Of a DNA stretch of 64,000 nucleotides, positions 4,994 through 10,986 are shown one piece after another. The position numbers were made by a program, and so were the translations under genes. Each line of letters starts with the position of its first letter. The first letter of the stretch is position 1. The DNA comes from Candidatus Dadabacteria bacterium (GTDB lineage: Bacteria > Desulfobacterota_D > UBA1144 > Nemesobacterales > Nemesobacteraceae), in contig JAPPAR010000001.1 in NCBI GenBank assembly GCA_026705445.1, positions 8,030 to 72,029 on the forward strand. The letters are read 5' to 3'. Under the pieces are notes generated by a model that made no database searches, was not told where the DNA came from, and saw nothing but the letters and a program-made list of their open reading frames with translations.

Positions 4994-6055
4994 TTAGGGA
5001 TAAAGCGGGACGGACTCAAGTCCCAGGCTCTCGGGAAGGTCGAGCATGATGTTCATGCTCTGTATCGCTTGGCCGGAGGCTCCCTTTACCAGGTTATCTA
5101 TGGCGCAGACAATTACCGCGGTTTTTTTCTCTGGGTTTGTCCTTACTCCTATGTCGCAGAAGTTTGAACCCCTGACGCAGGAGGTGTTCGGAAAAGTCCC
5201 CTCGGGAAGAATCCTCACGAAGGGCGAGTTCTCGTAGAATTGCCCCAGGGCGTCCAGCAGTTCCCGGGTCTTATGGATTCCAGAGAGGTTTACGTATATT
5301 GTCGAGAGTATCCCCCTGTTTATCGGTACGAGATGCGGGGTGAAGGCGACTTCCACCTTGCTGCCTAGAAAATCCGAGAGTCCCTGTTCTATTTCGGGAG
5401 TATGGCGGTGCTCGCCTACCTTGTAGGCTTTCATTGCTTCGGAGACCTCGCAGAAATGAAGATCAAGCGAAGGGTTCCTTCCCGCTCCCGAAGCTGCGGA
5501 TTTGGAATCAATTATGATTCCCTCAGTTTCCACCATGCCGTTTTCAAGAAGCGGCGCGAGTGGAAGGATCGAAGAGGTGGGATAGCATCCGGGGTTTGCC
5601 ACCAGTTTTGTCTCCGATATCCGTTCCGCATGCAGTTCGGGGATTCCGTAGACGGCGTTTTCGAGAAGATGGGCGCACGGATGATCCCCGTACCAGTCCC
5701 TGTAGGTCCCTTCCCTGAGGCGGAAATCCGCCCCGAGATCAATTATCCTTACGTCCCTTCCGTAAATTTCTTCTACGAGCTCGGCCGATGCTCCGTGCGG
5801 AAGCGCGGCGAATACCACGTCGGTATCGTCCGGAATGAGCGAGGGGTCCGAACTGCTGAGCTCGAGATTGGCTATTTCTCCAAGGTGCGGAAAGACCTCG
5901 GCCAGGGCACGACCTGCGTGCCTTGACGCTGTTAAATGCGAAATGCTGGCCCGGGGATGTCCCCCAAGGAGCCTTATGAGCTCCGCTCCCGTGTAGCCGC
6001 TTGCTCCCAGAATACATACGTTAAGATTTTGGGAATTATATACTTGACTAACCAT
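4994..6055 (-). CDS. argC: N-acetyl-gamma-glutamyl-phosphate reductase
   Basis: GASGYTG NAD-binding motif and a catalytic-Cys region (NPGCYPTS). The start is chosen at ATG 6055..6053, which sits inside the inverted-repeat end of the adjacent tnpB element. The ORF table extends further upstream, to 6079. Confidence 0.8.
   Translation of the reverse strand: MVSQVYNSQNLNVCILGASGYTGAELIRLLGGHPRASISHLTASRHAGRALAEVFPHLGEIANLELSSSDPSLIPDDTDVVFAALPHGASAELVEEIYGRDVRIIDLGADFRLREGTYRDWYGDHPCAHLLENAVYGIPELHAERISETKLVANPGCYPTSSILPLAPLLENGMVETEGIIIDSKSAASGAGRNPSLDLHFCEVSEAMKAYKVGEHRHTPEIEQGLSDFLGSKVEVAFTPHLVPINRGILSTIYVNLSGIHKTRELLDALGQFYENSPFVRILPEGTFPNTSCVRGSNFCDIGVRTNPEKKTAVIVCAIDNLVKGASGQAIQSMNIMLDLPESLGLESVPLYP
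6029..6053. repeat. Left terminal inverted repeat of the tnpB element; it overlaps the tnpB stop codon and encodes the first 8 codons of argC
   Basis: 24 of 25 positions match the reverse complement of 7293-7317. Confidence 0.6.
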
Positions 6056-7283
6056 CTGGCTGCCTCGCATCAATTTCACGGGTCGTCGGAGTCCTTTTAA
6101 AGACGGAACGCTCCTCGCCGTGCAGTCGCGCCATTCCCAGACGCCTTATGTTAATCGCAGCGTTCGTGTCCGCGTTGGACGCAAAACCGCAACTCACACA
6201 CTGGAACCGTGCTTGAGATTTACGGTTCTCTTTTTCCGCGTGTCCGCAACGCGAACACGTCTGAGATGTATACGCGGGATTCACTTCTATCAGTCTCCCG
6301 CACTTGTAATCAAGATTTCTTCTTGTCTCCCCCATGGCGGTATCAAGCATTGCCCTGTTAAGCCCTGCCTTCTGCTTCACGTTCTTCCCCGGATTCTCTA
6401 CAGTGCCCCTTGCGGAAGCAGTCATGTTTTTTACCCTGAGGCCTTCTGTGACTGCTGTACCGCTCTTGTCCGCAATCTTCTTTGTGGTCTGATGAACCCA
6501 GTCCTTGCGGATATTGGCTATTTTCCTGCTTGTTTTCGCAAGTTTCTTCTTTGTGTCCTTCCGTCTGTTAGACCCCTTTATCTGCCTTGCCATCCTCCGC
6601 TGATACCGCTTCCGCCTTGCTTCTTTCTTCCTTAAATCGGGCAGGAAGTAGAAATGTCCGTCAGAAGTGGCGACCTGGCGTGCGTTCATGTCAACTCCCA
6701 GAACCTCACCGTCATCCGGCCTTTTCTCCACTTCAACCTCGTAGGAAACAAAGGCACGCCACCTGTGCCCGTCATGGCGAAGCACCACCTGCCTGGGTAC
6801 GCCATCCTTCCATGGATTTCCTCCCCTGCGGGTCATCTTTACCCAACCGACCCTGGGGATAAGAAGCAGAGAGTATTTTTTATCGATATTCTTTATTCTG
6901 AAGTTCTCTTTGCTTGGAAGCGTGAAGCTGGGTGCGTGCCTGTTTCTGCTTCTCGGCTTCGGAAAACCCTTCTTGCCGGCCATCGCCTCTTTCAGTGCAT
7001 CCGCAAAATACTTGAGAGTATGTTTTATGGGATTTGCAGGAAGCTCCAGAAGCCAGTCCGTCTCGTGTCTTAGCCTAGTGAACTCAACGCCGAGACTGAA
7101 ATACGATGTAGATGGTCTTTCCCCTTTGCCATTCTTGAATGCCTGGTAGTCAGCAAGGTTCTTCTCCCTGAAATGGTTCCAGACGTACCGACAGGCTCCG
7201 GCCATCTGGAACATCTTCCTTGCCTTCGCCCTCGTGGCAGGCAGAACGACAAACTCTACTGTACGTATTTCTTTAGCAGTCAT
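6048..7283 (-). CDS. tnpB: TnpB (IS200/IS605-family OrfB, RuvC-like RNA-guided nuclease)
   Basis: 411 aa. The C-terminal zinc finger (CSRCGH...CVSCGF) and the RuvC-III NADTNAAINI motif are typical of TnpB. No tnpA gene is adjacent. Confidence 0.85.
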   Translation of the reverse strand: MTAKEIRTVEFVVLPATRAKARKMFQMAGACRYVWNHFREKNLADYQAFKNGKGERPSTSYFSLGVEFTRLRHETDWLLELPANPIKHTLKYFADALKEAMAGKKGFPKPRSRNRHAPSFTLPSKENFRIKNIDKKYSLLLIPRVGWVKMTRRGGNPWKDGVPRQVVLRHDGHRWRAFVSYEVEVEKRPDDGEVLGVDMNARQVATSDGHFYFLPDLRKKEARRKRYQRRMARQIKGSNRRKDTKKKLAKTSRKIANIRKDWVHQTTKKIADKSGTAVTEGLRVKNMTASARGTVENPGKNVKQKAGLNRAMLDTAMGETRRNLDYKCGRLIEVNPAYTSQTCSRCGHAEKENRKSQARFQCVSCGFASNADTNAAINIRRLGMARLHGEERSVFKRTPTTREIDARQPDG

Positions 7284-7292
7284 GATAATGCG

Positions 7293-7317
7293 GGTTAGTC
7301 AAGTATATAGTTCCCAA
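7293..7317. repeat. Right terminal inverted repeat of the tnpB element, 10 bp upstream of the tnpB start
   Basis: 24 of 25 positions match the reverse complement of 6029-6053. Confidence 0.6.
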
Positions 7318-7636
7318 GTTTTTCATCACCCTCAAACGATACTACGGGAATCAGGAAAATCAATCCGTACTCCTCAACGAAGACATGCTCCCGGGAAGCG
7401 GCAGGGGAGACTTTTCGTTTTCGGAAATTCCCTGGGTTCTGGTACAATTACAAGAGGTGTTTTGAGGTTGCGGTTTACCGCAGACCGGTTGGAAACTCCG
7501 TTTAGCAAGGCAAGATAAGATTTCAAATCCGCAGGAGAAAAGCCTGCCGATACCGAAAAGATATGCCGCTTGATCAAATTCCCGTACACTCGGGATCATA
7601 GTTGGGCACACATCAGGAATTGTCGACCGATTCTCT

Positions 7637-10600
7637 ATGCACATCGCCGATTTTTCAGTAAGAAACTCCTTTTTCGTGAACCTGCTGATGGGAGCCATAT
7701 TACTTATAGGGCTTCTGTTTTCATTTTCCCTTCCCCTTGAACTGTTCCCGTCGGTAAAACTCGAAATGGTTACGGTAACCACGTCTTTTCCGGGTTCTTC
7801 CGCCGAAGACGTTGAGAATCTTGTAAGCGTTCCCATTGAGCAGCAGATAAAGAACGTCTCCGGTGTCAAGATCGTAAAATCCGTTTCTTCCGAAGGGTTC
7901 TCGCGGGTTACGGCTGAGGTTTACCCGGGTGAAGACACCAGAAGGATCGCCTGGGAGATTGATTCCAAGATCAACCTGATAGCAGACGATCTTCCCGAGG
8001 ACACAGAAGAACCCGTAACAGAAGAGCAAAAGGCGAGTTTTCCGCTGGTGAGCGTTTCGGTCTCAGGGGACATGCCAAGAGATATTCTCTATAGCAGCGC
8101 CAGAAGACTGCGGGATGAGCTTGGGCTTTTAGACGGTATTGACAACATGACTTCCGTCGGACTGCCTGACCCGGCAATATGGGTGTATCTGGATTATCCG
8201 AAGATGGTGCAGTTTGGACTGGGGATTAAGGAGATTTCAGATGCCATCAACGCGAGGAATCTGGATATCCCCGGGGCGAATTTTACTGGGAACAGTACTG
8301 ATTTTCTGCTTAGAACCGAGGGAAAGATAAGATCTGTGGAAGATCTTCTCAATATTCCGGTTGCCCGCAGCGTTGAGGGTAAACATATTCTGCTCCGCGA
8401 TGTGGCGACGGTCGCTCTCGGAGAACAGCGAGAGGACCTGAGATCGAGGATAAATGGCCGTCCTGCGATTACTTTCTGGGTGGAGAAGCAGAAAGACGTT
8501 GATATCCTCGATACCGTCGACCGCATAAGGGAGCTTACCGAAAAGTATGAAAACCAGTTTCCCGAAGATGTGGAGATAAACCTGGCGTTTGACAGGTCAC
8601 ACTGGGTGAAAAGTCGTCTTCGGACCATGCTTAAAAGCGGGGGTCTGGGGTTTGTTCTGGTAGTAATCCTTCTCACTCTTTTTCTCGATCGCAAGGCGGC
8701 CTTTATAGCCGCTCTGGGGATTCCCGTTTCTTTTCTGGGGGCCGCGATATTAATGAAGATGACCGGCACAACGCTCAATGTCCTTTCCATGTTCGGTCTT
8801 ATAATGATGCTGGGTATGGTGGTGGATGACGCCATAATCGTTGTTGAGAATGTCCAGAGATATGTATCAAGGGGAATGGAGCCGCTGAGGGCGGCGGTGG
8901 TGGGGACAAAAGAGGTTGCCTGGCCAGTGGTCGCGACTGTGCTTACCAATATTGCAGCGTTTACCCCCCTTCTTCTTGCCACGGGGTTAATCGGACAGTT
9001 CCTTTCCGTAATTCCCAAAGTTGCTATCTTCGCTCTTTGTTTCTCCCTTTTCGAAGCCTTGCTGATCATGCCATCCCACTGTGCCGACTGGCTTCCGGCA
9101 AACGGCACAACGAGATCTCCTCGCGGAAACGCGCCGCTTCTGCGCGTAAGAGGTCTGTATCTGCGGGGACTTCTGTTTGCGCTTAGAAACCGCTATGCGG
9201 TAATAGGATGTTTCACGGTTATCTTCGCCGTTTCGGTCTTTATGTTTGTCCGGATTCCCAACGTGATGTTCTACCTTCATGATACTGAGGAAATAATGGT
9301 AAGAGTTGAGAATCCTCCCTCGTCCAGTCTGGAGCATACAGCCGCTTCCGTAGCCCAGGTGGAGGAAGCCGTGCGCCACAGCGTTCCCACTCATGTTCTG
9401 AGAAACACTTTATCCATGGTTGGACTCGATATGTCGGACCCTGACAATATGTTTTCTACGGGGGACCACGTGGCCACGGTTCTGGTTGAATACGAGGATT
9501 ACTCCGCCAGAAAAGAAAACGCGCTCGAACTCTCTGAGATTGCGGAGAGCAGGGTAGGGGAAACGGTGACGGGAGCCAAACAGGTTGATTTCGTAACGAC
9601 GACGGGTCCCCCTACCGGGAAACCGGTGGACGTTAAAATAAGCGGGGATGACATACCGGTGCTGATGGAAATAGCTTCCCGGGTCCGGGAGTATCTGAGC
9701 AATCAGCCGGGGGTGAGTGCCGCGACCAGCAATCTTATTTACGGAAAGCCCGAGGCGAGAGTTGAGATAGACGAGAGAAAAGCCGGGGTGTTCGGTATTG
9801 ACAAGTGGAACGTGTCGCGGGAAATCAAGGCTCTCGGAGACGGCCTCACAGTTGCGAAGACCAGAGTGGGTGAGGAAGAGGTTGAGATAAATCTGCGATA
9901 CGGAAGAGGAGAGTCCAGTGTTTTCTCGGTGAAATCGCACCAGGTCCCGACTCCTCTCGGAAGGCGGGTTCCTATCGGCACCGTGGCGGAGATAACGGAG
10001 TCCAAAACGCCGCTTGAGATAAGAAGGGAGAAGCTTCGAAGAACGGTTACCGTAACAGCCGAAGTGGACAACCAGACGACTACTTCAAGGGAGGTAACCG
10101 CAAATCTTTCGCGTCACCTCGACGGTCTTCTGGAGAACTACCCGGGCTACTCGTTTCGGTTCGCAGGGGAGGAGGAGCAGTATACTCAGGCTATAAGCGA
10201 CATAAAAAAGGCGTCGCTTTTGGCTTTACTTCTCATTTATCTCATTCTCGCAAGCATACTGCGTTCCACCTTTCAGCCCCTTATAATAATGAGTGTGCTG
10301 CCTTTTTGCATTACGGGAGTGATAATAGCGATTCTGCTGCGCGGCGAACCCATGACGCTCCCCGCCATAATAGGAATGGTTGCACTTCTGGGAATAGTGG
10401 TGAACGACAGCTTGCTGCTGATGAATTTTATCAACCGAAGGGCGAAAAAGATGCCGAGCAAGGCGGTGGCGATAGTATTTTCCGCTAGGTATCGTTTCCG
10501 CCCTATAGTTCTCACCACGCTTACGACCTTCTCGGGACTTTTCTCCCTGATGTTCGCTTACAAGGGCCAGGCGGGCATTCTCGCTCCGATGGCGGCTTCC

Positions 10601-10753
10601 CTGGGATTCGGACTTGTTTTTTCGACTTTCGTCATACTTTACCTTGTGCCCTGTCTTTATCTGGTTCTTGACGATATTGGCAAGCGGTTGCGGTATTTCA
10701 CCCGTCTGAGGACATTGGGGACGGGTGGAAGAGATTTCCTGCAAATTAGTTAA
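7637..10753 (+). CDS. Efflux RND transporter permease subunit (AcrB/CzcA superfamily)
   Basis: 1038 aa with 12-TM RND topology and two large periplasmic loops. The N-terminus (FVNLLMGAILLIGLLF...LPLELFPS) is characteristic. No adjacent adaptor or OMF gene is present. Confidence 0.9.
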   Translation: MHIADFSVRNSFFVNLLMGAILLIGLLFSFSLPLELFPSVKLEMVTVTTSFPGSSAEDVENLVSVPIEQQIKNVSGVKIVKSVSSEGFSRVTAEVYPGEDTRRIAWEIDSKINLIADDLPEDTEEPVTEEQKASFPLVSVSVSGDMPRDILYSSARRLRDELGLLDGIDNMTSVGLPDPAIWVYLDYPKMVQFGLGIKEISDAINARNLDIPGANFTGNSTDFLLRTEGKIRSVEDLLNIPVARSVEGKHILLRDVATVALGEQREDLRSRINGRPAITFWVEKQKDVDILDTVDRIRELTEKYENQFPEDVEINLAFDRSHWVKSRLRTMLKSGGLGFVLVVILLTLFLDRKAAFIAALGIPVSFLGAAILMKMTGTTLNVLSMFGLIMMLGMVVDDAIIVVENVQRYVSRGMEPLRAAVVGTKEVAWPVVATVLTNIAAFTPLLLATGLIGQFLSVIPKVAIFALCFSLFEALLIMPSHCADWLPANGTTRSPRGNAPLLRVRGLYLRGLLFALRNRYAVIGCFTVIFAVSVFMFVRIPNVMFYLHDTEEIMVRVENPPSSSLEHTAASVAQVEEAVRHSVPTHVLRNTLSMVGLDMSDPDNMFSTGDHVATVLVEYEDYSARKENALELSEIAESRVGETVTGAKQVDFVTTTGPPTGKPVDVKISGDDIPVLMEIASRVREYLSNQPGVSAATSNLIYGKPEARVEIDERKAGVFGIDKWNVSREIKALGDGLTVAKTRVGEEEVEINLRYGRGESSVFSVKSHQVPTPLGRRVPIGTVAEITESKTPLEIRREKLRRTVTVTAEVDNQTTTSREVTANLSRHLDGLLENYPGYSFRFAGEEEQYTQAISDIKKASLLALLLIYLILASILRSTFQPLIIMSVLPFCITGVIIAILLRGEPMTLPAIIGMVALLGIVVNDSLLLMNFINRRAKKMPSKAVAIVFSARYRFRPIVLTTLTTFSGLFSLMFAYKGQAGILAPMAASLGFGLVFSTFVILYLVPCLYLVLDDIGKRLRYFTRLRTLGTGGRDFLQIS

Positions 10754-10921
10754 TGACTAGGTACCCTGTACAATTACAAAAGTGCTTTTTGAGGGCTCAG
10801 CGACTGAAGATCGGGCGGAAAATATCGATTAAGAACCGTTATGCTCGGTGTTCTTGTATCCGTTAGGGTGATTCGGCCACGCGGCGAAATGCGGTATTTC
10901 TTTTCAAATTGATTTCTCTAT

Positions 10922-10948
10922 TTGACTAACAGCAGGCAAGTGTATAGT
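10922..10948 (+). promoter_or_regulatory. Putative sigma70-type promoter upstream of gap (TTGACT-N15-TATAGT)
   Basis: Hexamers identified by eye about 40 bp upstream of the gap ATG. The spacer is short, at 15 nt. Confidence 0.3.
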
Positions 10949-10986
10949 TTTTGCGAAGTTCAAAGTCAAGTTTCGGAGGTTTTGTG

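What the first reader, a model, noticed from the sequence alone, without database searches (positions are those of the whole stretch)
5990..7320. tnpB-only element bounded by 25-bp inverted repeats whose end encodes the start of argC
The tnpB ORF (6048..7283, minus strand) is bracketed exactly by inverted repeats at 6029-6053 and 7293-7317, matching at 24 of 25 positions. IS200/IS605 elements, where TnpB normally lives, have subterminal hairpins rather than terminal inverted repeats. No tnpA gene is present. This looks like a TIR-type, non-autonomous carrier of an RNA-guided nuclease. The left repeat overlaps the tnpB stop codon. On the other strand it supplies the ATG and first 8 codons (MVSQVYNS) of argC, so the arginine-biosynthesis gene has an element-derived N-terminus and promoter-proximal region. 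If a TnpB omega-RNA is made from the tnpB 3' end as usual, its guide segment would be argC 5' coding sequence. The element also sits about 320 bp upstream of an RND pump gene that has no adjacent adaptor gene.
Basis: partly seen in the sequence, partly recalled or inferred. Interest (0 to 1): 0.55.

Follow-up and report, generated by a model that had tools for sequence, protein, structure and literature searches.

The report
TnpB cassette replacing gene start codons
A 1.3-kb mobile cassette carrying only the RNA-guided nuclease gene tnpB, but with the ends and 8-bp footprint of an IS1595 cut-and-paste transposon, has inserted one base after the argC start codon and supplies argC with a new ribosome-binding site, ATG and eight codons, a pattern repeated at many other genes in related bacteria.

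Summary
Window 6031-7315 (minus strand) is a 1285-bp tnpB-only element. It has 23-bp terminal inverted repeats and an 8-bp target-site duplication (AAAATCTT / AAAAACTT). One slip: argC lies on the same strand as tnpB, not the other.

The unit belongs to a multi-copy family in Candidatus Dadabacteria. In the first 25 copies, 11 have perfect 8-bp duplications. The identical 21-22-nt repeat also bounds elements that encode IS1595-family DDE transposases, some with restriction-modification cargo, and these also make 8-bp duplications. So this is a non-autonomous IS1595-type cassette, not an IS200/IS605 element.

TnpB keeps its catalytic D/E/D residues and is under purifying selection (dN/dS 0.14). 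It overlaps a conserved, covarying RNA structure that ends at the right repeat, consistent with an omega-RNA.

Empty-site alleles show native argC starts ATG-AAA-AAG-CTT (346 aa). Here it reads MVSQVYNSQ-NLNVC (353 aa) from a GAGG plus ATG inside the element.

New finding: at 18 of 32 independent sites the same ATG is fused in frame to the downstream host gene. In 11 of these the host start codon abuts the duplication.

TnpB in DDE/TIR elements is known but rare. I found no report of the IS1595 link or the start-codon-replacing behaviour.

The parts
6031..7315 (-). Whole element, 1285 bp: left TIR, tnpB, right TIR. No transposase gene.
   Evidence: Ends were defined by comparing about 30 copies whose similarity stops at GGGAA...TTCCC.
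7293..7315 (.). Left (tnpB-proximal) terminal inverted repeat. Minus strand: GGGAACTATATACTTGACTAACC.
   Evidence: It differs by 1 nt from the TIR of the IS1595 transposase-bearing elements L031 and L038.
6031..6053 (.). Right terminal inverted repeat. Minus strand: GGTTAGTCAAGTATATAATTCCC. It contains the tnpB TAG stop.
6023..6030 (-). Right copy of the 8-bp target-site duplication (AAAATCTT). It is now codons 9-11 of the fused argC.
7316..7323 (-). Left copy of the target-site duplication (AAAAACTT). It matches the right copy at 7 of 8 positions. Against the empty-site alleles it reads as ATGA + AAAA-CTT with one base lost.
7324..7333 (-). Relic of the native argC translation start (GAGGGTGATG: Shine-Dalgarno sequence plus ATG at 7326-7324), now stranded upstream of the element.
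   Evidence: Alignment with the empty-site alleles L047, L048 and L049.
6048..7283 (-). tnpB, 411 aa, with RuvC D/E/D and zinc finger intact.
   Evidence: Median dN/dS is 0.14 across copies.
6053..6066 (-). Element-borne translation start for the host gene: GAGG (6066-6063), a 7-nt spacer, then ATG (6055-6053). The ATG overlaps the tnpB codons GAT-GGT-TAG.
   Evidence: Read directly from the sequence. The ATG is kept in 21 of 23 copies although the tnpB codon varies among GAT, AAT, TAT and CAT.
4994..6055 (-). argC as now expressed: 353 aa. The first 8 codons and the first base of codon 9 come from the element.
6031..6262 (-). Putative omega-RNA scaffold: the 3' part of tnpB plus the right TIR, folding into eight conserved helices.
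   Evidence: Synonymous divergence is halved in the last 82 codons.
6011..6030 (-). Putative omega-RNA guide: the target-site duplication plus the next 12 nt, which are argC codons 2-7 of the native gene. This is inferred.
   Evidence: Inferred from the geometry of TnpB systems (established knowledge). No RNA data are available.

Best explanation
Window 6031-7315 is a non-autonomous cargo cassette of the IS1595 transposon family. Its only gene is an active-looking tnpB with an overlapping omega-RNA.

Shown:
- It has 23-bp TIRs and an 8-bp target-site duplication.
- The same TIR bounds elements that encode IS1595 DDE transposases.
- It is multi-copy in Candidatus Dadabacteria, with near-identical copies in one genome.
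- It inserted 1 nt after the native argC ATG, in the same orientation as argC.
- argC now opens with an ATG and 8 codons from the element, preceded by a GAGG inside the tnpB 3' end.

Inferred:
- It is moved in trans by an IS1595 transposase through cut-and-paste.
- tnpB, which has no recognisable promoter, is transcribed from the host argC promoter.
- argC is co-transcribed downstream and translated by coupling at the ATGGTTAG overlap, so the insertion is nearly harmless.
- TnpB with an omega-RNA, whose guide is the duplication plus argC codons 2-7, would cut empty alleles and favour retention of the element, as in IS605 and IS607 systems.

Across the family this start-codon-replacing arrangement recurs, so it looks like an adapted lifestyle rather than an accident at argC.
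For: TIR and TSD:
- The repeat matches at 24 of 25 positions, with 0 expected by chance.
- The TSD is a perfect 8 bp in 11 of 25 copies and at least 7 of 8 in 14 of 25. Only 0.8% of mismatched-locus controls reach 7 of 8, and only length 8 peaks.
- Further perfect TSDs occur in L053 and L057.

Partner elements:
- The exact 21-nt TIR was found in 16 metagenome loci, most without tnpB.
- L031, L038 and L033 are TIR-bounded units encoding proteins with PF12762 (E 1e-42 to 1e-47) plus PF12760, and NF033547 at 191-211 bits against a cutoff of 75. L033 and L038 have perfect 8-bp TSDs.
- An IS1595 element is present in a Dadabacteria contig (L050) and on the same contig as a tnpB copy (L041).

Mobility:
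- L022, L023 and L024 are 98.6-99.1% identical at three sites in one genome.

TnpB function:
- The D/E/D residues align to solved TnpBs.
- Median dN/dS is 0.14.

RNA:
- 97.7% of cells are paired, against 27-45% when partners are slid.
- Double-sided changes number 27, against 12 +/- 3.3 in shuffles (0 of 500 reach the observed value).
- A hairpin is kept in three sequence versions.
- The fold has z = -2.35.
- dS is halved at the 3' end.

argC:
- Homologues are 346 aa and start MKKLNVCILG.
- Syntenic empty sites are L048, L049 and L047.

Family pattern:
- At 17 of 31 sites (18 of 32 with L057) the TIR ATG is open and in frame into an ORF of at least 95 aa. The null is 18.8%, P = 8e-6.
- 29 of 31 sites have a same-orientation gene downstream.
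Against: - No IS1595 transposase with the exact TIR has been shown in a genome that also holds tnpB copies. The exact-TIR partners sit in a spirochete endosymbiont, a phage-like contig and contigs of varied GC content.
- None of the top 120 transposase homologues lies on a contig whose length matches the Dadabacteria complete genomes.
- The Dadabacteria IS1595 element in L050 and L041 shares only about 10 terminal nucleotides of the TIR.
- The window copy is at most 87% identical to any other copy held, and its left TSD copy has decayed, so it may no longer move.
- No RNA, protein or activity data exist. The omega-RNA, its guide and translation from the element's ATG are all inferred.
- The RNA structure was derived from the same sequences on which it was scored.
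Confidence: 0.72

Rival explanations
1. It is an ordinary IS200/IS605 (IS1341-type) tnpB-only element mobilised by a Y1 TnpA through subterminal hairpins, and the inverted repeat is coincidental or host sequence.
For: TnpB is typical of that family. NCBIfam IS200_TnpB gives a 154-bit partial match. Some subfamilies have a small hairpin between the left TIR and the ATG.
Against: The TIR is conserved at both ends of about 30 copies and is flanked by site-specific 8-bp direct repeats, whereas IS200/IS605 elements make no TSD and have no TIR (PMC4810608, PMC3627910). The same TIR bounds IS1595 transposase genes. No Y1 TnpA is seen next to any copy. The IS200/IS605-specific model is not passed (154 bits against a cutoff of 425).
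Confidence: 0.02
2. The window copy is an immobile fossil. The family spread in the past, but this insertion is now simply inherited, and tnpB is maintained for some host-level or selfish role unrelated to current transposition.
For: The nearest copy is 87% identical. The left TSD copy has lost a base and the TIRs differ at one position. Other insertions are shared by diverged strains (L054-56, L057/58). No exact-TIR transposase was found in Dadabacteria. The literature reports that most TnpB clusters are immobile (PMC10691335).
Against: A strain with 96% identical ArgC lacks the insertion (L047), so the insertion is not ancient. Copies 98.6-99.1% identical in one genome show the family still moves. 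The TIRs are nearly intact. This reading is compatible with the main explanation as to origin.
Confidence: 0.2
3. The association with start codons is produced only by host-level purifying selection plus an A/T-rich, roughly palindromic target preference of the transposase (AAnnnnTT). TnpB and its RNA play no part in where copies are found.
For: The TSDs are A-rich at the 5' end and T-rich at the 3' end. Regions around start codons are A-rich. Genomes of 1.5-2.4 Mb leave few neutral sites. The element carries its own GAGG plus ATG, so in-frame insertions at gene starts are the ones that survive.
Against: TSD position 1 is A in 31 of 31 copies, but position 8 is T in only 19 of 31, so the preference is not symmetric. 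The 4 nt before the TSD follow A-W-K-R, with no C at -1 to -3, in 18 of 18 copies. The few transposase-bearing elements do not follow either rule (L033 TCCG|A, L038 TACG|A, L041 TGCA|C), though that sample is small.
Confidence: 0.35
4. TnpB here is a domesticated, guide-RNA-directed regulator of argC, like the nuclease-dead TldR proteins.
For: The putative guide equals argC 5' coding sequence, and tnpB is co-oriented with argC.
Against: The catalytic D/E/D residues are intact. The same element sits next to unrelated genes in many genomes. It has transposon ends and a TSD. Close strains lack it.
Confidence: 0.03

Closest known systems
DDE-transposase-associated TnpB branches (DDE-1 to DDE-6) and solo TnpBs with the same ends (Altae-Tran et al. 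2023, PMC10691335; summarised in PMC13565253 as ISL2, IS630 and IS1031)
   Same: A prokaryotic TnpB sits inside an element with inverted terminal repeats. The TnpB 3' end lies close to the transposon end. Solo TnpB units carry ends identical to those of transposase-bearing elements, implying mobilisation in trans.
   Different: The partner here is IS1595 (zinc-ribbon DDE, 8-bp TSD), which is not among the families named in the texts I could read. No copy with transposase and tnpB together was found. The element end carries a Shine-Dalgarno sequence plus ATG that replaces host start codons.
IS1595-family insertion sequences with passenger genes, and transposase-less 'mobile insertion cassettes' (ISfinder concepts; from my own knowledge, not retrievable with the tools)
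   Same: 8-bp TSD, TIRs beginning GGGAATTAT, cargo genes between the ends (restriction-modification systems in L031, L038 and L037), and cargo-only derivatives.
   Different: The cargo is an RNA-guided nuclease with its guide-RNA gene. The assignment to the ISNwi1 subgroup rests on memory only.
IS200/IS605 and IS607 TnpB/omega-RNA systems (ISDra2, IS608; Meers et al. 2023; Karvelis et al. 2021)
   Same: A TnpB with the RuvC triad and zinc finger. A structured RNA overlaps the tnpB 3' end and abuts the right end, with the guide taken from the flanking DNA.
   Different: No Y1 or serine TnpA, no subterminal-hairpin ends, and presence of TIRs and a TSD. The guide would begin with the TSD. The TAM is unknown and cannot be the transposase target motif.
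Fanzor elements in eukaryotic TIR/TSD transposons (Bao & Jurka 2013, PMC3627910; Yoon et al. 2023, PMC10711439)
   Same: A TnpB-type nuclease carried as cargo by cut-and-paste DDE transposons with TIRs and TSDs, often in non-autonomous copies.
   Different: This one is bacterial. The protein is a standard 411-aa TnpB, and there is no evidence of relatedness to the Fanzor clades.

Membership tests
TnpB (RNA-guided nuclease, OMEGA system) | RuvC-like domain with the D/E/D catalytic triad and a zinc-ribbon insertion; passes curated family models | tested here: met
   Pfam PF01385 and PF07282. NF040570 at 232 bits against a cutoff of 100. D, E and D align to those of 8h1j/8bf8-type TnpB.
TnpB (RNA-guided nuclease, OMEGA system) | Structured omega-RNA encoded at the tnpB 3' end and running to the transposon end, with the guide taken from the flank | tested here: inconclusive
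   A conserved eight-helix structure with compensatory changes, plus reduced dS. There is no Rfam model and no RNA data.
TnpB (RNA-guided nuclease, OMEGA system) | TAM-dependent, guide-directed DNA cleavage | not testable with these tools
   Only a candidate motif is available: A-W-K-R before an invariant A.
IS200/IS605 (including the IS1341 group) | No terminal inverted repeats; subterminal hairpins at both ends | tested here: not met
   A 23-bp TIR is conserved across the family.
IS200/IS605 (including the IS1341 group) | Insertion without a target-site duplication | tested here: not met
   8-bp TSD, confirmed by empty sites (also L013 against L016).
IS200/IS605 (including the IS1341 group) | Y1 HUH TnpA in the element or in the family | tested here: not met
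   No TnpA lies next to any of about 35 copies. The TnpB-specific model NF038281 is not passed (154 bits against a cutoff of 425).
IS607 | Serine-recombinase TnpA; no TIR and no TSD | tested here: not met
   The same evidence as for IS200/IS605. NF038280 scores 108 bits against a cutoff of 350.
IS1595 family (as a non-autonomous member) | Terminal inverted repeats shared with elements that encode an IS1595 transposase | tested here: met
   The exact 21-22-nt TIR occurs in L031, L038, L033, L036 and L042 next to genes with PF12762, PF12760 and NF033547.
IS1595 family (as a non-autonomous member) | 8-bp target-site duplication | tested here: met
   for the tnpB units. L033 AAAAACAT, L038 ATAATTAG and L041 CAAAAATG for the transposase-bearing units.
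IS1595 family (as a non-autonomous member) | Own DDE transposase with an N-terminal zinc ribbon | tested here: not met
   The unit encodes only TnpB, so it can only be a cargo-only derivative.
IS1595 family (as a non-autonomous member) | Actual mobilisation in trans by an IS1595 transposase present in the same cell | tested here: inconclusive
   IS1595 elements exist in Dadabacteria (L050, L041) but with a TIR that matches only at the tip. No exact-TIR partner was found in those genomes. Recent copies imply some source of transposase.
TldR-type domesticated TnpB | Inactivated RuvC site, single fixed locus, loss of transposon ends | tested here: not met
   The triad is intact. The element is multi-copy with TIRs and TSDs.

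The most novel reading that the evidence does not exclude
The element is specialised to live at gene start codons. Its TnpB would recognise a TAM that coincides with the translation-initiation context: A-W-K-R (typically ATGA, ATGG, ATTG or AAGG) followed by an invariant A. The omega-RNA guide would then always be the first codons of a host gene, and the nuclease would police empty alleles at gene starts. The element compensates the host by supplying a Shine-Dalgarno sequence, an ATG and an 8-codon tag, and in some subfamilies it couples tnpB translation to the stranded host ATG through a TAATG overlap. That would be a new niche for an RNA-guided transposon-encoded nuclease, and the first case in which the TAM rather than the transposase shapes where a cut-and-paste element persists.
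Probability: 0.25. Interest if true: 0.85.

Novelty: new variant of a known kind. Interest (0 to 1): 0.66.

Why it matters
TnpB is thought to help 'scarless' IS605 and IS607 transposons persist. Its value to cut-and-paste DDE elements in bacteria is an open point, and documented cases are few.

This family offers a clean natural example with many copies, reciprocal empty sites, an identified partner transposase family and the same ends carrying restriction-modification cargo. That makes the question experimentally tractable through TAM assays, trans-mobilisation and homing.

The start-codon-replacing design also shows how a mobile element can sit inside essential genes and operons (for example argC, argB, queA and oadB, with assignments at varying strength) without inactivating them. 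This matters for annotation, because N-termini such as MVSQVYNSQ are transposon-derived. It could also inspire compact gene-trap or knock-in cassettes that carry a small RNA-guided nuclease.

Tried and rejected
- **Rfam:** A permissive scan of 5800-7500 gave only noise, so no curated omega-RNA model exists to compare with.
- **Promoter and terminator scan:** No sigma-70-like promoter for tnpB and no outward promoter at the right end, despite the TATAAT in the TIR. I dropped the idea of an element-borne promoter.
- **Left-end coupling:** I tested whether a reading frame from the stranded host ATG always runs through the left TIR to a stop overlapping the tnpB ATG, which would require (L+R) divisible by 3. 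It holds for L013/L028, L022-24 and L051 but not in general: remainders were 0 in 10, 1 in 8 and 2 in 4 copies among the 22 scorable copies. I kept it only as a side note.
- **Exact-TIR transposase in Dadabacteria:** None of the top 120 homologues of the L031 transposase lies on a contig whose length matches the complete Dadabacteria genomes.
- **IS1595 subgroup end consensus in the literature:** Not found, and the relevant reviews are not held. The ISNwi1-group resemblance (ends ggnnatTAT, 8-bp repeat) is therefore from memory only.
- **Composite element with both transposase and tnpB:** None among about 50 loci.
- **IS605-type hairpin ends and a host-sequence origin of the repeat:** Rejected by the TSDs and the empty sites.
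Full report
**Observation.** The window holds a 411-aa ORF on the minus strand (6048..7283). Pfam and NCBIfam identify it as an RNA-guided TnpB. It is bracketed by an inverted repeat at 6029-6053 / 7293-7317, identical at 24 of 25 positions. The 25-mer has no other match with up to 3 mismatches in the 64 kb, and none in 100 shuffles. The TAG stop of tnpB lies inside the repeat. An ATG at 6055-6053 opens an ArgC ORF.

**It is a transposon with a target-site duplication.** The exact protein occurs on nine metagenome contigs, all with the same insertion. Relatives 75-92% identical are abundant in Candidatus Dadabacteria, also labelled Thermodesulfobacteriota. A genome scan returned 27 loci, with up to five copies per complete genome. 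All copies begin GGGAATTATATAC... and end ...GTATATAATTCCC. The 8 bp on either side are direct repeats that differ from site to site. They are perfect in 11 of 25 copies and match at 7 or more of 8 positions in 14 of 25. Only 0.8% of mismatched-locus controls reach 7 of 8, and only length 8 shows a peak. The window copy has AAAATCTT and AAAAACTT. The true element is therefore 6031-7315 (1285 bp). Three copies in genome OY763921 are 98.6-99.1% identical at different sites, so the family has moved recently. Most other pairs within a genome are 80-95% identical.

**Which transposase.** A metagenome scan for the exact 21-nt TIR found 16 loci, and most have no tnpB. In these loci the same TIR pairs bound other units:
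- L031 and L038 are 2.58-kb elements with a roughly 300-aa protein plus an N6/N4 methyltransferase and an MvaI/BcnI-type endonuclease.
- L033 is a 1.7-kb element with a 312-aa homologue.
- L037 is a methyltransferase plus BglII-like endonuclease cassette without a transposase.

The 300-aa proteins carry Zn_ribbon_IS1595 and DDE_Tnp_IS1595 domains (E 1e-42 to 1e-47) and pass the NCBIfam IS1595 model. L033 and L038 have perfect 8-bp duplications. The tnpB unit therefore has the ends and the footprint of an IS1595-family element and lacks only the transposase.

The L038 protein is annotated as an IS1595 transposase of the Olavius algarvensis spirochete endosymbiont. The L031 element lies in a phage-like contig with portal, terminase and head protease genes.

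In Dadabacteria themselves I found an IS1595 element with an intact transposase. It is in L050, whose flank is 90% identical to genome OZ246948, and in L041, on the same contig as a tnpB copy. Its TIR matches only over the terminal ~10 nt. None of the 120 best homologues of the L031 transposase lies on a contig with the length of a Dadabacteria complete genome. Trans-mobilisation by an IS1595 enzyme is thus strongly implied by the anatomy, but a resident exact-TIR partner has not been shown.

**Is TnpB functional.** The catalytic D, E and D align with those of solved TnpB structures. Nineteen intact copies give a median dN/dS of 0.14. The last ~230 nt of the element are unusually invariant at the nucleotide level. 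A consensus fold gives eight helices, with 97.7% of cells paired against 27-45% when partners are slid. Double-sided changes number 27, against 12 +/- 3.3 in shuffles, and 0 of 500 shuffles reach the observed value. A hairpin clamped by the invariant CACGG...CCGTG is maintained in three different sequence versions. The window sequence folds with z = -2.35. Synonymous divergence in the last 82 codons is 0.49, against 0.77-1.03 elsewhere. This is what an omega-RNA scaffold ending at the right TIR would look like, but there is no curated model and no expression data. If it is an omega-RNA, the guide is the duplication plus the following bases, which are native argC codons 2-7.

**argC.** ArgC homologues are almost all 346 aa and begin MKKLNVCILGASGYTG. 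The window's protein is 353 aa. Contigs L048 and L049 (90% ArgC identity) have the same gene order of RND pump, argC and Aminotran_5 gene, with no tnpB. L047 (96% identity) also lacks the element. The alignment gives these sequences:
- Native: ...GGTGATGAAAAAGCTTAACGTATGT...
- Window left flank: ...GGTGATGAAAAA-CTT|TIR
- Window right flank: TIR|AAAATCTTAACGTATGT

The element therefore entered 1 nt after the native ATG. The old Shine-Dalgarno sequence and ATG are stranded at 7333-7324. ArgC now starts at the element's ATG, which is preceded by GAGG with a 7-nt spacer (6066-6053). The protein reads MVSQVYNSQ-NLNVC... in place of MK-NLNVC..., a net gain of 7 residues.

**The pattern is general.** At 17 of 31 independent sites the TIR's ATG is open and in frame into a downstream ORF of at least 95 aa. 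With L057 the count is 18 of 32. Random junctions in the window give 18.8% (P = 8e-6). At 29 of 31 sites a same-orientation gene starts within about 260 nt. Fused partners include:
- ArgC, confirmed by Pfam.
- OadB and a MurJ-family protein, identified by precomputed Pfam hits.
- ArgB-like, QueA-like, AroQ-like and LeuRS-like proteins and a lipoprotein, named from their N-terminal sequences only and not searched.

In 11 cases the host start codon abuts the duplication. It reads ATGR|TSD in L004, L006, L007, L013, L053, L057, the window and L051. For the window and L051 this assumes that the left TSD copy lost one base. In a subfamily whose tag is 24 rather than 25 nt (L022-24) it reads [A/T]TG|TSD, so the offset changes with the tag length and the frame is kept.

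L013 and L016 are reciprocal empty sites. They show queA changed from MRTDQFDY to MGKQVYNSQTDQFDY.

The ATG is conserved in 21 of 23 copies, although the tnpB codon that supplies it varies among GAT, AAT, TAT and CAT. The conserved feature is therefore the ATG in the overlapping frame. Transposase-bearing elements with the same TIR lack this ATG. No promoter-like site is found in the element, and only 10 nt separate the left TIR from the tnpB ATG. I therefore infer that tnpB rides on host promoters.

**Target site.** Position 1 of the duplication is A in 31 of 31 copies, while position 8 is T in only 19. The four bases before the duplication follow A-W-K-R, with no C at -1 to -3, in 18 of 18 copies. 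The few transposase-bearing elements do not obey either rule. This asymmetry is unexplained. It may reflect the translation-initiation context, or it may reflect a TnpB TAM located exactly where the motif lies.

**Comparison with the known.** Classical accounts state that prokaryotic TnpB-only elements lack TIRs and TSDs (PMC3627910, PMC4810608). Altae-Tran et al. 2023 (PMC10691335) described six TnpB branches associated with DDE transposases, all with inverted terminal repeats, plus solo TnpBs with the same ends. A 2026 review lists ISL2, IS630 and IS1031 (PMC13565253). The kind is therefore known but rare. In the texts and searches available to me, IS1595 is not among the partners, and I found no description of an element end that replaces host start codons. 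I classify the finding as a new variant of a known kind.

**Limits.** All functional statements rest on sequence. These include transcription from host promoters, translation from the element's ATG, the omega-RNA and its guide, and trans-mobilisation. The RNA structure was scored on the sequences from which it was derived. The insertion sample comes from one bacterial lineage and includes some vertically inherited sites (L054-56, L057/58).

Noticed in passing
L031 11188-13766 (same contig as L059; also L060 9014-11592): An IS1595 transposase plus an N6/N4 methyltransferase plus an MvaI/BcnI-type endonuclease, bounded by the exact TIR, sits in a phage-like contig with portal, large terminase, head protease and DnaD-like loader genes. 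This is a possible vehicle for spreading this TIR family between phyla.
   Followed up: partly
L037 200-2070: A methyltransferase plus a BglII-like endonuclease lie between the same TIRs with no transposase. This is a second kind of cargo-only cassette using these ends.
   Followed up: partly
L050 7552-14449; L041 4546-7601: A Dadabacteria IS1595 element with the TIR GGGAATTATAAAGGAAAGTTGAC. In L041 the TSD is CAAAAATG. The L050 copy is interrupted by nested IS110-type and IS4-type transposase genes.
   Followed up: partly
L013 ~1190-1214 and L016 ~120-146: An orthologous solo GTATATAATTTCC(C) sequence, resembling a right TIR, lies just upstream of a conserved 167-170-aa gene in two genomes. 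It may be a relic end retained as a -10 promoter element.
   Followed up: no
L011 and L025, 4218-4274: Two right-end copies lie 33 bp apart (...GTATATAATTTCC ATTGAAAACTGTTTTCAGTT GTATATAATTCCC) at the same site in two genomes. This was not analysed.
   Followed up: no
window ~10754-10950 (compare L032 and L046): Strains about 90% identical to the window carry a tnpB element at a different nearby site, upstream of gap, where the window has none.
   Followed up: partly
L057/L058 1956-3250; L054-L056: tnpB is inserted inside the oxaloacetate decarboxylase operon between the alpha and beta subunit genes (ATGA|AAAAATTC, with OadB fused). The same insertions are shared by strains whose TnpBs have diverged, indicating long vertical inheritance.
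   Followed up: partly
Left ends of L013, L028, L022-L024 and L051: A reading frame started at the stranded host ATG runs through the left TIR and stops at a TAA or TGA overlapping the tnpB ATG (TAATG or ATGA). This suggests translational coupling of tnpB to the host initiation site. It does not hold in all subfamilies.
   Followed up: yes
L030 340-818: A tnpB fragment 90% identical to the window's lies in a contig labelled uncultured Spirochaetia. Together with the spirochete-endosymbiont transposase (L038), this hints at exchange between phyla.
   Followed up: no
window 7637-10753 and L001 12837-13236: The RND pump gene has no adjacent membrane-fusion adaptor gene. A weakly matching MFP-like gene lies about 7 kb away, on the far side of argC.
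   Followed up: no
TnpB residues ~285-315 (window 6340-6430, minus strand): The segment MTASARGTVENPGKNVKQKAGLNRAMLD, located after the RuvC-II glutamate, is absent from ISDra2 TnpB. It is shared almost verbatim with the 540-aa PDB chain 9j09_A, annotated 'Transposase'. It may mark a clade.
   Followed up: no
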